64,000 bases of DNA from the human T2T-CHM13v2.0 reference genome, Homo sapiens: assembly GCF_009914755.1 (NCBI RefSeq), contig NC_060947.1; one strand, 5' to 3'. The position numbers were made by a program, and so were the translations under genes. The notes beneath the pieces were generated by a model. It saw nothing but the letters and a program-made list of their open reading frames with translations. It made no database searches and was not told the DNA's origin. This document shows positions 6,588-63,820 of this stretch, one piece after another. Numbering within the stretch: the stretch's first letter is position 1; the number at the start of each line of letters is the position of its first letter.

Positions 6588-6671
6588 TGCTGTACATTAC
6601 TCCTCTCAAAAAGGTGACATTTATATTTTAGTTCACATAAATGACACCTCCTTGTGAAAGGCACTGTACAC
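6588..6671 (-). ncRNA. MIR513B: pre-miR-513b hairpin (5p 6637-6658 UUCACAAGGAGGUGUCAUUUAU; 3p 6601-6622 AAAUGUCACCUUUUUGAGAGGA)
   Basis: Both arms match recalled hsa-miR-513b; arms pair with each other; extended stem spans 6566-6694. Confidence 0.95.
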
Positions 6672-9938: not shown

Positions 9939-13770
<3,832 letters not shown>

Positions 13771-21008: not shown

Positions 21009-21137
21009 GGGACACCACATATGCAGTGCATGCTGTACATTACCCTTCTCAGAAAGGTGAAATTTATATTTTAGTTCACATAAATGACACCTCCCTGTGA
21101 AAGGCACTGTACGCTGAATGGCTGAATGTGGCATCCC
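21009..21137 (-). ncRNA. MIR513A1: pre-miR-513a-1 hairpin (5p 21084-21101 UUCACAGGGAGGUGUCAU; 3p UAAAUUUCACCUUUCUGAGAAGG)
   Basis: Minus strand reads GGGAUGCCACAUUCAGCCAUUCAGCGUACAGUGCCUUUCACAGGGAGG..., matching recalled hsa-mir-513a-1. Confidence 0.95.
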
Positions 21138-33354: not shown

Positions 33355-33482
33355 GGGACACCACATATGCAGTGCATGCTGTACATTACCCTTCTCAGAA
33401 AGGTGAAATTTATATTTTAGTTCACATAAATGACACCTCCCTGTGAAAGGCACTGCACACTGAATGGCTGAATGTGGCATCC
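33355..33482 (-). ncRNA. MIR513A2: pre-miR-513a-2 hairpin
   Basis: Same mature arms as 513a-1; flank reads CAGUGUGCAGUGCC as in recalled hsa-mir-513a-2. Confidence 0.95.
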
Positions 33483-38559: not shown

Positions 38560-38653
38560 GTATCTGTTGTGCATTATTTCACTCCAAAAGGTGCAAAACA
38601 TATTTCTAGACACATGCATGGCACTTCTTGAAGTGAAGCACTACACACAGCAC
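38560..38653 (-). ncRNA. MIR507: pre-miR-507 (mature 38578-38598 UUUUGCACCUUUUGGAGUGAA)
   Basis: Matches recalled hsa-mir-507. Confidence 0.96.
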
Positions 38654-44602: not shown

Positions 44603-44717
44603 CCACCAAATATGCGTTACGTGATGTGTATTACTCTACTCCAAAAGGCTACAATCATGTTTTAGTTTACATGAGTGACGCCCTCTGGAGTAGGGCACTA
44701 CACTCAGCTGAAGGTGG
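44603..44717 (-). ncRNA. MIR508: pre-miR-508 (5p 44670-44692 UACUCCAGAGGGCGUCACUCAUG; 3p 44635-44657 UGAUUGUAGCCUUUUGGAGUAGA)
   Basis: Matches recalled hsa-mir-508. Confidence 0.97.
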
Positions 44718-57330: not shown

Positions 57331-57843
57331 CAGAAAAGACCAGAAATAATTACCAAAAAAAAAAAAAAAAGGAGCTTTAATACCTGGGAGAAAAAAAATA
57401 CTTTGGTCTTTAGTAGGGTAAGGATCTGAGAAGGGAGGGAACTGATGGATGCCTAAGGGGAAAATCTTAAAAATGAAGAGGAATGTCGATAGGTGGTAAG
57501 TTAAGAGATTTGCAGGCTACGGTTGGGAATAGGTTCTTACAAAAGAAAAAACACTTTATAGGTGACAGGAACACCATGAAGACAGTGAAAGGCTTGTTAC
57601 CATTTTGGTCAAGCAACTTTGGCAAAAGGGATCTGAATCTCAGAAGAAACTCAATGGGAAGTTTTTCCTCAGACTTTCAGTTTCTAGGTCTTACGTCTGA
57701 TAATTAATTTAGAGAATTAACTGAGCTAGTCCAGAACAGGGAGGGTGTCAGTAGAAATGTCTGCATTCTAGGGAAAGTATTATACTGCTTGCAACTTAAC
57801 ACGCCCCGTGTATCCACCATGCCATGTCATATGATGTATATAT

Positions 57844-57923
57844 CATGTGTTACTCCACTCACAGAGGTGTCAATCATATCTAATTACACATGATTGCCTC
57901 CCTCTTGAGAAGAGTACCACATG
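57844..57923 (-). ncRNA. MIR514B: pre-miR-514b (5p 57890-57911 UUCUCAAGAGGGAGGCAAUCAU; 3p 57854-57874 AUUGACACCUCUGUGAGUGGA)
   Basis: Matches recalled hsa-mir-514b. Confidence 0.96.
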
Positions 57924-57979
57924 AAGAATAGAACACTTAAGGATGGCAGCCCAGCCTAATGACTGACTCATGCACCTTT

Positions 57980-58282
57980 CTTTTTATATTTTAAAAATAT
58001 GTAATTGACAAACAAAATTTGTATATATTCAAGGTGTGCAATGTGATTTGATATGTATATACATCGCGTACTGATTACCATAGTAAAATTAACTAACACA
58101 TCATTCACCGCTCTTAGTTACCATTTGTGTGTGTGTTGTGGGGGTGTGGTGAGGACACTTAAAATCTGCTCTCTTATCAAATTTCCAGTAAACAATTACA
58201 GCATTATTATCACTATGCTATACATTAGATAGCCAGAGCTTATCTATTACGTAACTCAAAGTTTGTACTCTTTGACCAACAT
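57980..58282 (-). mobile_element. L1MA 3' end fragment
   Basis: taattgacaaacaaaatttgtatatattcaaggtgtgcaatgtgat...gtactctttgaccaaca. Confidence 0.75.
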
Positions 58283-59945
58283 GCATCTTTCAAAAACACA
58301 TCATTGTTTTCAATCTGATTGGTGACTGGTGTTCATACAAAGGGCCTCTGTAGCATGCACTACACTGTCTTTCTTCATCCATCCTTTCCTGTGTTGTCCA
58401 ATCATGGTTTGGAGTTATGACATGGCAATTTTCAGAACTATGAACCATTAAGCTTTTCTGCTAGACTCTCTTGTGCACGGAAGAAAAATCCTTGCATGTC
58501 TTATCCTGTTTATTTTTTCCATTATTATAAAGTGTTAGAAAGCAGTTTACATTCCTCAGGTCTAATAGTTAACAGGAAAATATACTCTATGTCATCTATG
58601 CTCGTCACCTGAAGATGAGTCCCTCTACCTGAGTTACATCCCTCAACTCCTGAACCACAGAATAAGCAGGGAAAACACACAAGATTCTAGGATAGGATGG
58701 TAATCACTGATGTGATGGAGAGTAGAAATGTCTGTTTCTCCTTAAATCCTAGAGCAAAAATAAAAATATTTTACTTACCAGGAATGAACTGCAAAACAGA
58801 AAATGTTCTTGGCATCTATGGATGCCATTAAACTTCTTCCAGTTTGTGAGATTTCTGAGTCTTTCCCTCGAGCGTGGTCTTTTCAAGCATTTTTGTTTGC
58901 ATTTTTCTCCATTTGGAAACATGCAACTATGTGTCTTCATTTTCCTGGATGAACTAAATCTGGGACACCAAAATATAGTAACACAAATATGGTAAATGGA
59001 TGTCAGAGAACTGGGATGGAAGAAAGAGGTGATTGTAAGTAGCCTAAAATGTGAAGTTGCTACCAGTCAAAAATTATGGTATCTTAATGGAAGAAACAAG
59101 TTCCCAGCCTTTCTCATGCACCCTACCCTTAATTTTGTGTTGCTGTGGCTAAGCAACAGGTACAGATGTTAGGGGCACTGTTCGTACACTCAGCTCACTT
59201 TCGTAGGGTGTAGGCTTTAGTGTGGTTTTGGCAGGTTGAGAATATGGGGTCTCTGATCATCATCACCCCAGAATAATCATAAAACAGAGTTTCAACCCTG
59301 GAATGAGCAGGCTGAGAAGACCAAAATCTACGACTACCAATCTTCACTCTGTACATAAAGCAGGAGTGTTGTGAAAGAAGCAGGTCGCTGCACCTTCCCA
59401 AAGCTTGAGAGCAGTGAGTCAGAGATTCTTTTTCCCAGTGTGAGAAGTGAGTTTGAATAAAAGATGGTATTATAGCTCTCCTAAAAAAAAAAATAGGACT
59501 TTATTTATAGCAGAGTCAGGGAAAGCTCAGGCTTAACGATGCTCCAGGTAACAACACAGATTTTGGAGGTAAGTAAGTAAGATGGATTTGGTAGCTGTAT
59601 GAGAGCAACAAGCTAAACCACAGGCCAGCTTATTTACCAGAGTATCCGATAAACTGACAGCTAATAAGAGCCTTCCTGTATCAGAACAAACCTGAAAGAC
59701 TTGCCTTTAAAACAACGTGTTCCAAGTGGCTTAAATTATTTTGATCAAACTCTGATACGTTTTTCCCTTAAAATTCAAAAAAAACGATAGAGAAAGTCAG
59801 CATTCAGTGAGAAAACCTAACATCTCTGTGTGATACACAGAGACCACTAGCTGGACAGAGAGATCAGGAAAAGAAACAAAAAGAATGCTACTAAAATCAC
59901 TGTCATCTTAGAGTTACTATGTGCATACAAAGGCTGTGCTCTCTA

Positions 59946-62160: not shown

Positions 62161-62993
62161 CCAACTCAGTAATAAAAACAACACTGAAGCAATTGAGTCT
62201 TGTCTGCTTTTCTTGCATTCTCTCTCCCTGTCTCTGTTTCTCTCTCTGTGTGTGTCTTTTTTTCACACTCACTCTCTCACTCATCACAGTGTTAGGAAGT
62301 GACACCACATGAAAAATAAAAGGAAAACGAAAGACATGTAAGTTAAAATAAATAGTAATAGCAAAACAAAATGAAATAAATCAAAGAGTACAAGTTTCTG
62401 TGTGCTCTGCACAACCTCTTATAAATTGGTGGCTTATAAAGGATTCAAATGCTTTTCAAAGAATGAGTACCTCTTCAGCCAATGAAGAAAAAAATGAGCT
62501 TTCATATTTGAGACAGAAAATATGTTGTCAGCAGGTTGGGATCTGAGTAGTAGGAGGGGATTTGGAAAGGCCTAAAAAGAAGGCTTGAAAACGAGGAGGA
62601 GGGAATAATAAATAATAACTTGTAAACTGATATAAGCATCAAGAAAGAAAAAGGTTCTGTAAAAACTTAATACTCTGCAGCAGAGAATAAAAACATAGCC
62701 ACACTGAAAACCTGGTTTTCATTTTTGTCAGGCAACTTTGTAAAAATAGGTATCAATCCCAGGAAAAGATATCCCAGGAAAAAATAAAAACAAGAAAAGG
62801 CGTTTTTCCAGGACCTTTAGTTCCTAGGACTTACCTCTGCAAATTTACATAAGATGATTCCATGAGATAGTCCAGCAGGGTGGCGGAGGTGTGTGAACAG
62901 CATAGATGTACTCTATGGAAAACAGCTCTCTGCATGCAACTAATCTTCCCTCAAGTGCACCCATAGTTATATTACATATGCTGCATATGTCAC

Positions 62994-63070
62994 GTGTTAC
63001 ACCACTCGTAGAGGTTTCAATCATATGTCATTACCATATGTGATTGCTACTCTCTCGAGTAAGGCCCCGC
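62994..63070 (-). ncRNA. miR-510-like hairpin paralog (candidate miRNA or pseudogene)
   Basis: 5' arm UACUCGAGAGAGUAGCAAUCAC (63040-63061) and 3' arm AUUGAAACCUCUACGAGUGGU (63001-63021); 3 and 2 mismatches to recalled miR-510-5p and -3p. Confidence 0.75.
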
Positions 63071-63294
63071 AGACAGCATGTCTAAGGATGGAAGCCCTGC
63101 TTAAACACCCATTCATGTACCTTTTAAAAAGCTACTCAATGTTTTCAGGCTGTGAGTGGCTACCAGTATTTGTTCAAAGTACCTCTACAGTGAACACTCC
63201 ACTGTTTTTTTTCCTCATCCATTCTTCCCTGAAGTGCTGTCCACTTGTGTGTTGAAGTTTTCACATGGTAGTTTTCAGAACTGAGGAGCAATAA

Positions 63295-63568
<274 letters not shown>

Positions 63569-63820
63569 CATTAAGCCTTTCTCTTATGTTCTCTTGCATA
63601 TATAAGACGTACCCCTGTGTGTCTTGTCCTGGTTTTTTTTATCCATTATTATATATAAAGCATTAACAAATCATTTGTCTTCTTTAGACCCAATAATTAA
63701 GCAGTAAATACACTCCATCTCACCACTCTTGCCTTGTCACCCAAAGATCTGAGTCCTTTTATCTGAGTTATGTTCCTCAATTTCTGAATCACAGAATGAG
63801 CAGATAAAAAAGACCAGATT

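What the first reader, a model, noticed from the sequence alone, without database searches (positions are those of the whole stretch)
62994..63070. Extra miR-510-like hairpin with a new 5p seed and a compensatory change in the 3' arm
Seen: the minus strand gives 5p UACUCGAGAGAGUAGCAAUCAC, loop region AUAUGGUAAUGACAUAUG and 3p AUUGAAACCUCUACGAGUGGU. Recalled miR-510 is UACUCAGGAGAGUGGCAAUCAC / AUUGAAACCUCUAAGAGUGGA. The 5p seed therefore changes from ACUCAGG to ACUCGAG, and the new G6 pairs with a matching A>C change in the 3' arm (UACUCG:CGAGUG). The 3p seed is unchanged. A CNNC motif (CAGC) starts 18 nt after the 3p end, the same position as in miR-513b (CUGC), miR-506 (CAAC) and miR-514b (CAUC) here. 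From memory, annotated human MIR510 lies beyond the miR-509 copies and not 5 kb from miR-514b, so this looks like an additional member. Against function: the lower stem (GCGGGGCCU vs GUGUAACAC) has more mismatches than miR-510. Whether it is processed is inference.
Basis: partly seen in the sequence, partly recalled or inferred. Interest (0 to 1): 0.8.

Follow-up and report, generated by a model that had tools for sequence, protein, structure and literature searches.

The report
Known testis microRNA missing from RefSeq
The hairpin is a real member of the X-linked miR-506 microRNA family, but it is already catalogued in MirGeneDB as Hsa-Mir-506-P29, so it is a gap in gene annotation and not a discovery.

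Summary
It matches Rfam's mir-509 model at 60.3 bits, E 4.4e-11 over the whole window, just under the gathering score of 64.5. It folds as a hairpin (z -3.27).

It is not new. Zhang et al. 2019 (PMC6445303, supplement) list the identical 70-nt precursor as "hsa-mir-510-9", with 205 3p reads in testis and 0-1 in four other tissues. The MirGeneDB table in eLife 2024 (PMC11031087, supplementary file 14) lists Hsa-Mir-506-P29, with no miRBase ID and seed GAUUGAA. Its coordinates map exactly to window 63001-63061.

The 5p arm with the "new seed" is the passenger: macaque testis gives 5 5p reads against 31,762 3p reads.

The locus is old. The supplement lists copies in the same slot in chimp, gorilla, gibbon, macaque and squirrel monkey. 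The G:C pair is A:U in squirrel monkey and G:U in chimp.

The human hairpin has the weakest fold z-score of the nine family hairpins tested. Its 3p reads are about 11-fold lower, relative to neighbouring miRNAs, than in macaque.

Verdict: already known, low interest.

The parts
62988..63075 (-). Pri-miRNA hairpin including the basal stem.
   Evidence: In the fold of 62984-63078(-), the paired region runs from 63075 to 62988: -31.3 kcal/mol, z -3.27. The Rfam mir-509 match covers 62990-63074(-) at 60.3 bits.
63001..63061 (-). Pre-miRNA, 61 nt, equal to MirGeneDB Hsa-Mir-506-P29 (hg38 chrX:147255308-147255368, minus strand).
   Evidence: MirGeneDB table in PMC11031087 supplementary file 14. The offset was taken from Hsa-Mir-506-P8/MIR514B (hg38 147250161-147250218 = window 57854-57911). 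Length and both ends fit exactly. The hg19 spacing to mir-514b in Zhang 2019 (5150 nt) equals the window spacing.
63001..63023 (-). 3p arm, the mature strand: 23 nt starting TGATTGAAACC, seed GAUUGAA.
   Evidence: The 3p sequence is given for hsa-mir-510-9 in Zhang 2019 Data S4. The MirGeneDB seed is GAUUGAA. Reads: 205 in testis, 0-1 in brain, cerebellum, heart and kidney. Its 20-nt core occurs once in the 3.1-Gb assembly.
63039..63061 (-). 5p arm, the passenger strand. It starts TACTCGAG and is 22-23 nt long.
   Evidence: Sequence. Zhang 2019 lists no human 5p mature sequence or read row. The macaque ortholog's 5p is a 23-mer with 5 testis reads. With a 23-nt 5p, both ends of the duplex have 2-nt 3' overhangs in the fold.
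63074..63075 (-). Basal UG motif at -14/-13 from the 5p Drosha cut.
   Evidence: Read directly. MirGeneDB flags UG=1 for this locus.
62980..62983 (-). CNNC motif (CAGC) at +18 to +21 after the 3p end.
   Evidence: Read directly. MirGeneDB flags CNNC=1. The motif is at the same aligned position in MIR510 and MIR514B.
63066..63066 (-). Basal-stem base that differs in human. The human precursor starts GGGGCC, where chimp, gorilla and gibbon have GGTGCC and macaque GGTACC.
   Evidence: By-eye comparison of the Data S4 rows. The base lies in an internal loop of the human fold. Any effect on processing is inference.

Best explanation
[quoted passage not shown] It is the one catalogued as Hsa-Mir-506-P29 in MirGeneDB and as hsa-mir-510-9 in Zhang et al. 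2019.

It lies on the minus strand like the rest of the cluster and is presumably transcribed with it in testis. Drosha/DGCR8 would cut at 63061/63001, helped by the basal UG and the downstream CNNC. Dicer would release a duplex with 2-nt overhangs, and the 3p strand (seed GAUUGAA) is the one retained.

It is an old paralog of MIR510. The same slot is occupied from squirrel monkey to human. It is neither a recent copy nor a new discovery. In human it is weakly expressed compared with macaque.

Shown: the sequence, the fold, the family match, identity with the catalogued entries, and the published read counts. Inferred: co-transcription with the cluster, the cut sites, AGO loading and any target repression.
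For: - Sequence and arms.
- Rfam mir-509 model: 60.3 bits, E 3.4e-13 for the 501 bases searched and E 4.4e-11 for the whole window.
- Hairpin fold: -31.3 kcal/mol, z -3.27, 1 of 200 shuffles as good.
- Zhang 2019 Data S4 gives an identical 70-nt precursor at hg19 chrX:146336823-146336893(-), marked as not in miRBase 18, with the 3p mature listed.
- Read table of that paper: 3p reads are 205 in testis, 1 in kidney, 0 in brain, cerebellum and heart. Its methods state Bowtie -v 0.
- The 20-nt core of the 3p arm occurs once in the assembly, so exact reads are locus-specific.
- MirGeneDB table: Hsa-Mir-506-P29, miRBase ID None, seed GAUUGAA, UG=1, CNNC=1, locus origin Catarrhini, with ortholog Mml-Mir-506-P29. 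Its coordinates map to window 63001-63061.
- Macaque copy in the same slot: 31,762 3p and 5 5p testis reads.
- Copies in the same slot (between mir-514b and the first mir-509) in gorilla, gibbon, macaque and squirrel monkey. In chimp the copy lies between mir-508 and the first mir-509, because no mir-514b row is listed there.
- The pair at 5p position 6 is A:U in squirrel monkey, G:C in macaque, gibbon, gorilla and human, and G:U in chimp.
Against: - The Rfam score is below the family's gathering cut-off (60.3 against 64.5), so default Rfam annotation misses it.
- It has the weakest fold z-score of the nine family hairpins tested (apart from the dead copy), with a mismatch-rich basal stem.
- No human 5p reads are listed.
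- Human 3p reads are only 0.22 of miR-510-3p and 0.15 of miR-514b-3p, against 2.5 and 1.8 in macaque.
- The read tables come from a supplement. I could not check their units or number of libraries, or whether -v 0 was also used for the re-analysed public data.
- I saw no AGO-binding or target data for this miRNA.
- The orangutan list lacks both this locus and mir-514b. That is either a loss or an assembly gap.
Confidence: 0.9

Rival explanations
1. In the human lineage the gene is decaying. The hairpin is still cut occasionally but gives too little mature RNA to matter, because the basal stem has weakened. One candidate cause is the T>G change seen only in human at window 63066.
For: - Weakest fold z-score among the intact family hairpins tested: -3.27, against -4.00 to -8.14 in the window and -5.03 for MIR510.
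- Rfam score below gathering.
- Relative 3p abundance is about 11-fold lower in human than in macaque testis against two neighbouring miRNAs (205/947 and 205/1332 against 31762/12831 and 31762/17668).
- The human precursor starts GGGGCC where four other primates have GGTGCC or GGTACC.
Against: - The 205 exact reads are confined almost entirely to testis.
- MirGeneDB keeps the human locus as a gene.
- Both arms, the UG and the CNNC are intact.
- Other human family members also have far fewer reads than their macaque orthologs in the same tables (miR-508-3p: 93 against 239,038). The ratio may therefore reflect samples, not the locus.
Confidence: 0.2
2. One reading: a previously undescribed miRNA whose 5p arm, with the new seed ACUCGAG, is the functional innovation, stabilised by a compensatory change in the 3' arm.
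For: The seed and the pairing C are real. The A:U, G:C and G:U states across primates show that the pair is maintained. The locus is in neither RefSeq nor miRBase (hub table).
Against: - The locus is already published and curated.
- The 5p arm has no human read row, and 5 reads against 31,762 for 3p in macaque.
- The MirGeneDB seed is that of the 3p arm.
- The 5p sequence is shared across catarrhines, so it is not a recent change.
Confidence: 0.03
3. A dead relic of the family's founding repeat or of an old duplication, which folds by descent but is never processed.
For: Such relics exist nearby. The unannotated mir-509-like hairpin between MIR510 and MIR514A1 scores 74.2 bits in Rfam but folds with z -0.39. 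I saw no row for it in the part of the human read table shown, and no human MirGeneDB entry lies at that place.
Against: This hairpin keeps its stem (z -3.27), has testis-specific exact reads from a unique sequence, and has an abundant macaque ortholog.
Confidence: 0.03
4. The plus-strand hairpin, inside an intron of the plus-strand lncRNA LOC105373347, is the processed one.
For: The plus strand also folds well (-28.6 kcal/mol, z -3.99), and the lncRNA model spans the locus (hub table).
Against: - Rfam gives 21.2 bits on the plus strand against 60.3 on the minus strand.
- The reported mature sequence is the minus-strand 3p.
- All seven annotated neighbours are on the minus strand.
- UG and CNNC sit at the correct distances on the minus strand.
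Confidence: 0.01

Closest known systems
MirGeneDB Hsa-Mir-506-P29 (no miRBase ID), the same locus as 'hsa-mir-510-9' of Zhang et al. 2019 MBE
   Same: The same locus. The hg38 coordinates map to window 63001-63061 with the same 61-nt length. The seed GAUUGAA is read at 63022-63016, and the UG and CNNC flags agree. The 70-nt hg19 precursor is identical by eye.
   Different: Nothing in the sequence.
MIR510 (Hsa-Mir-506-P5), 17 kb further along the cluster
   Same: The closest paralog in the whole assembly: 79% over 85 nt. The arms are nearly identical, the CNNC position is the same, and so are the strand and the cluster. The 3p arms are identical from the TGATTGAAACC start up to the A>C change.
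   Different: - The 5p arm differs at positions 6, 7 and 14. The 3p arm differs by A>C and at its last base. The loop has 3 extra nt.
- The MirGeneDB seed of MIR510 is the 5p ACUCAGG, whereas P29 is 3p-dominant.
- MIR510 folds better (z -5.03 against -3.27).
- The two were already separate in squirrel monkey.
Mml-Mir-506-P29 (mml-mir-510-10 of Zhang 2019), the macaque ortholog
   Same: The same slot between mir-514b and mir-509. The 5p arm is the same, and so is the 3p start and seed.
   Different: The macaque basal stem starts GGTACC and the 3' end reads GAGTAGT. The macaque copy is abundant: 31,762 3p testis reads, more than mml-miR-510-3p at 12,831.
MIR514B (Hsa-Mir-506-P8), 5.1 kb away in the window
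   Same: The closest paralog inside the window: 73.2% over 82 aligned columns. The upstream flanks are still about 70% alike over 183 and 253 nt, a trace of an old tandem duplication.
   Different: Different seeds on both arms, and a much stronger hairpin (z -7.15). It is annotated in RefSeq and miRBase.

Membership tests
Rfam mir-509 precursor family RF04216 (clan CL00136) | Covariance-model score at or above the curated gathering score (64.5 bits). | tested here: not met
   60.3 bits, E 3.4e-13 for the 501 bases searched and 4.4e-11 for the whole window, with the full-length model 1-82 matched. It is not listed at gathering threshold. Homology is clear, but the formal cut-off is missed by 4.2 bits.
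MIR-506 family (X-linked SLITRK2-FMR1 cluster) | Located in the cluster, on the same strand as the other members, with precursor homology to them. | tested here: met
   It lies between MIR514B and MIR509-2 on the minus strand (hub table). It is 79% identical to MIR510 and 73% to MIR514B. The flanks are homologous to the MIR514B flank.
Canonical Drosha/Dicer miRNA | An imperfect hairpin with a stem of about three helical turns plus a basal stem, and 2-nt 3' overhangs at both ends of the reported duplex. | tested here: met
   In the fold, 5p U(63061) pairs with G(63003), leaving GU as overhang. 3p U(63023) pairs with A(63041), leaving CA as overhang if the 5p arm is the 23-mer reported for macaque. 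The basal stem is interrupted (10 pairs with loops).
Canonical Drosha/Dicer miRNA | Processing motifs: basal UG at -14, CNNC 16-18 nt downstream, apical UGU/GUG. The expected positions are recalled from the literature on pri-miRNA motifs, not taken from a call. | tested here: met
   UG at 63075-63074 and CAGC at 62983-62980. No apical UGU. This agrees with the MirGeneDB flags UG=1, UGUG blank, CNNC=1.
Canonical Drosha/Dicer miRNA | Small-RNA reads from both arms with homogeneous 5' ends. | not testable with these tools
   No read data are on hand. Published tables give 205 testis reads for the human 3p arm and no 5p row. For macaque they give 31,762 3p and 5 5p reads. I could not inspect 5' homogeneity.
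MirGeneDB entry Hsa-Mir-506-P29 | Same coordinates, length, strand and seed. | tested here: met
   hg38 147255308-147255368(-) minus the offset 147192307 (derived from MIR514B) gives window 63001-63061, 61 nt. The seed GAUUGAA is read at 63022-63016. The entry's own sequence was not seen; only the table row was.

The most novel reading that the evidence does not exclude
The human copy may be losing function. A basal-stem change seen only in human among the six species listed (GGTGCC to GGGGCC, window 63066), together with the AGTAGT to AGTGGT change shared with chimp, may have cut Microprocessor efficiency about tenfold. That would turn one of the most abundant macaque testis miRNAs of this cluster into a marginal one in man. 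It would be a datable, single-nucleotide case of miRNA decay in a family thought to act in sperm competition.
Probability: 0.25. Interest if true: 0.35.

Novelty: already known. Interest (0 to 1): 0.12.

Why it matters
There is little new biology here. The locus is a curated MirGeneDB gene and has been in print since 2019.

The practical point is an annotation gap. RefSeq and miRBase lack it, and Rfam's default threshold misses it. Pipelines built on those resources will therefore discard or misassign its testis reads. Reads allowed one mismatch could be counted as miR-510-3p.

The human-to-macaque difference in abundance, together with the basal-stem change seen only in human, offers a small, testable case of lineage-specific change in miRNA processing.

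Tried and rejected
- Rfam at gathering threshold did not report the hairpin. It needed the E-value mode.
- A full-text search for the 20-nt core of the 3p arm found 0 papers. A search for 'Mir-506-P29' also found 0 papers. The locus appears only in supplementary tables, which the full-text search does not cover.
- The same string was absent from the 12 of 20 eLife supplementary files that were searched. Eight files were not searched.
- The main texts of the eLife 2024 and EMBO Rep 2018 papers (term look-ups only) do not discuss an extra miR-510-like gene.
Who first reported the locus is therefore open.
- Earlier findings of this scan were not open.
- The primate orthologs were compared by eye from the supplement rows, not with an aligner, because sequence from a paper may not be typed into the tools. 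No covariation statistic was computed.
- I considered and rejected a recent duplication of MIR510. The copies are only 79% identical, and both exist in squirrel monkey.
- I did not try to explain the 3p arm preference by end stability. Both arms start with U, and their 5' terminal pairs look similar in the fold.

Full report
**1. Observation**

On the minus strand the window reads, 5' to 3', as follows:
- a basal segment ending GCGGGGCCT;
- the 5p arm, starting TACTCGAG (63061->63040);
- an 18-nt loop region;
- GTAACACG and further flank, with CAGC at 62983-62980, that is +18 to +21 from the 3p end.

A search of the window's own assembly with the 85-nt hairpin returned two places: the hairpin itself, and a 79%-identical match at window-equivalent 80017-80098(-), which is MIR510. 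The alignment shows these differences:
- 5p positions 6, 7 and 14;
- the A>C change in the 3' arm;
- the last base of the 3p arm;
- three extra loop bases.

CNNC sits at the same aligned position in MIR510 (CTAC) and MIR514B (CATC).

In the fold, 5p G6 pairs with the new C. In MIR510, A6 is unpaired opposite two unpaired A. Relative to MIR510 the change therefore adds a pair. It does not compensate for a lost one.

**2. More than chance**

- Rfam's mir-509 model (RF04216) matches 62990-63074(-) over its full length at 60.3 bits. The E-value is 3.4e-13 for the 501 bases searched and 4.4e-11 for the whole window.
- This is 4.2 bits under the curated gathering score, so the default scan lists only the seven annotated genes.
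- At E<=0.01 over the whole window, every other match to a miR-506-related family overlaps one of those seven genes.
- The 95-nt pri-miRNA segment folds at -31.3 kcal/mol, z -3.27, with 1 of 200 shuffles as good.
- This is the weakest z-score of the family hairpins tested. The seven annotated ones give z -4.00 to -8.14, and MIR510 gives -5.03.

**3. What it is: the literature settles it**

*Zhang et al. 2019* (Mol Biol Evol, PMC6445303). I saw term passages of the main text, and of supplementary file 1 parts 26 and 27 in full plus passages from parts 4, 7, 24, 25 and 29.

- The authors searched the SLITRK2-FMR1 interval by homology and numbered the hairpins in genomic order.
- Data S4 lists 'hsa-mir-510-9' at hg19 chrX:146336823-146336893(-). 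Its 70-nt precursor is identical by eye to window 62999-63068(-).
- The row is marked as not annotated in miRBase 18, has no 5p mature sequence, and has a 23-nt 3p mature sequence that starts TGATTGAAACC.
- The start of this row lies 5150 nt from the start of the mir-514b row, exactly as in the window.
- Their read table for human tissues gives hsa-mir-510-9-3p as brain 0, cerebellum 0, heart 0, kidney 1, testis 205. For comparison, miR-510-3p has 947 and miR-514b-3p has 1332 in testis.
- Their methods state Bowtie with no mismatch. I assume, but could not verify, that this also applies to the re-analysed public libraries.
- The 20-nt core of the 3p arm occurs exactly once in the 3.1-Gb assembly, so exact reads belong to this locus.

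*The MirGeneDB table* in Wang et al. 2024 (eLife, PMC11031087, supplementary file 14, both parts read).

- It lists Hsa-Mir-506-P29: miRBase ID None, seed GAUUGAA, hg38 chrX:147255308-147255368(-), locus origin Catarrhini, UG=1, UGUG blank, CNNC=1.
- The macaque ortholog Mml-Mir-506-P29 is listed too, also without a miRBase ID.
- To map the coordinates I used the same table's MIR514B entry (147250161-147250218 = window 57854-57911, from the RefSeq mature-arm exons). P29 then maps to window 63001-63061.
- That interval is 61 nt, running exactly from the first base of the 5p arm to the last base of the 3p arm.
- The seed GAUUGAA is read at 63022-63016.
- The locus is therefore a curated miRNA gene.

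**4. Which arm matters**

- Both sources make the 3p arm the mature strand, with its 5' end at 63023.
- This start fits the geometry of the fold. With the 23-nt 5p arm reported for macaque, both the Drosha end and the Dicer end of the duplex have 2-nt 3' overhangs.
- The 5p arm that carries the 'new seed' has no read row in human. In macaque testis it has 5 reads against 31,762 for 3p.
- The 3p arm is identical to the MIR510 3' arm from the TGATTGAAACC start up to the A>C change. Any targeting would thus largely overlap that of the corresponding miR-510-3p isoform. That is inference.

**5. Age and the 'compensatory' change**

Data S4 lists a copy in the same slot in five other primates:

| Species | Name in Data S4 | Pair at 5p position 6 / notes |
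|---|---|---|
| Chimp | pan-mir-510-8 | 3' arm has T at the pairing base, giving G:U |
| Gorilla | ggo-mir-510-9 | G:C |
| Gibbon | nom-mir-510-9 | G:C |
| Macaque | mml-mir-510-10 | G:C |
| Squirrel monkey | sbo-mir-510-5 | 5p arm TACTCAAG, 3' arm CTCTGTGAGTAG, giving A:U |

- The pair goes A:U, then G:C, then G:U in chimp. This is genuine maintenance of pairing along the orthologous line, and it dates to the catarrhine stem, not to a recent event.
- Squirrel monkey also has a separate miR-510 copy (sbo-mir-510-3). The P29/MIR510 split is therefore older than the split between New World monkeys and catarrhines.
- MirGeneDB scores the locus origin as Catarrhini. No squirrel-monkey rows appear in the table I read, which may explain this.
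- The orangutan list lacks both this locus and mir-514b. That is either a loss or an assembly gap.
- Within the window, the upstream flank still aligns to the MIR514B flank at about 70% identity (183 and 253 nt), interrupted by an Alu-like (SRP-related) insert at about 63300-63570. This is a trace of an old tandem duplication.

These comparisons were made by eye from the supplement rows. No covariation statistic was computed.

**6. How it most likely works**

It is most likely a canonical miRNA. It would be transcribed on the minus strand with the cluster in testis and cut by Drosha/DGCR8 about one helical turn above a loose basal stem. The basal UG at -14 (63075-63074) and the CNNC at +18 would assist the cut. 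Dicer would follow, and the 3p strand would be loaded.

- Shown here: the sequence, the structure, the motifs, the family homology and the uniqueness of the 3p core.
- Shown in print: testis-restricted exact reads and database curation.
- Inferred: co-transcription, the exact cut sites, AGO loading and target repression.

**7. What remains open**

Relative to two neighbouring miRNAs, the human 3p arm is about 11-fold less abundant than the macaque one:

| Ratio | Human | Macaque |
|---|---|---|
| P29-3p / miR-510-3p | 205/947 = 0.22 | 31,762/12,831 = 2.5 |
| P29-3p / miR-514b-3p | 205/1332 = 0.15 | 31,762/17,668 = 1.8 |

- The human precursor starts GGGGCC, where chimp, gorilla and gibbon have GGTGCC and macaque has GGTACC. 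The differing base is window 63066.
- A weakening of Microprocessor recognition in the human lineage is therefore plausible but untested.
- Other family members also differ greatly between the two tables (miR-508-3p: 93 against 239,038), so sample effects are a live alternative.

**8. Verdict**

The novelty claim fails, and the emphasis on the 5p seed is misplaced.

The finding is already known, and its value is as an annotation gap in RefSeq, miRBase and Rfam's default threshold.

Limits of this check: paper reading closed, so Meunier et al. 2013 and the MirGeneDB papers could not be consulted. Eight of the 20 eLife supplementary files were not searched.

Noticed in passing
Outside the window: L003:4424-4505(-), equal to window-equivalent 84523-84604, between MIR510 and MIR514A1: Another unannotated mir-509-family hairpin. 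It scores above Rfam's gathering cut-off (74.2 against 64.5 bits) but folds no better than shuffles (-19.4 kcal/mol, z -0.39). By position it matches the 'mir-509-14' rows of chimp, gorilla and macaque in Zhang 2019. I saw no row for it in the part of the human read table shown, and no human MirGeneDB entry lies there. It is probably a dead copy, and it shows that the Rfam score alone ranks these two loci the wrong way round.
   Followed up: partly
window 63300-63570, and 63114-63296 / 63569-63820 against 58280-58686: An Alu-like element (SRP-related Rfam hits, about 80% identity to many other copies in the window) sits about 230 nt upstream of the hairpin. It splits a stretch that is about 70% identical to the upstream flank of MIR514B. 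This is a remnant of the tandem duplication that made the two loci.
   Followed up: partly
window 57843-57924, 44624-44705, 38567-38648, 21033-21114, 33379-33460, 6590-6671 (plus strand): The antisense strands of six annotated family hairpins also match their Rfam models at 43-56 bits, as expected for near-palindromic precursors. A plus-strand lncRNA model (LOC105373347) spans them all. Whether antisense hairpins are ever processed was not examined.
   Followed up: no
Zhang 2019 Data S4, orangutan sheet: The orangutan list goes from mir-508 straight to six mir-509 copies, with neither mir-514b nor the P29 ortholog. This is either a lineage-specific deletion of about 10 kb or an assembly gap in the genome version used.
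   Followed up: no
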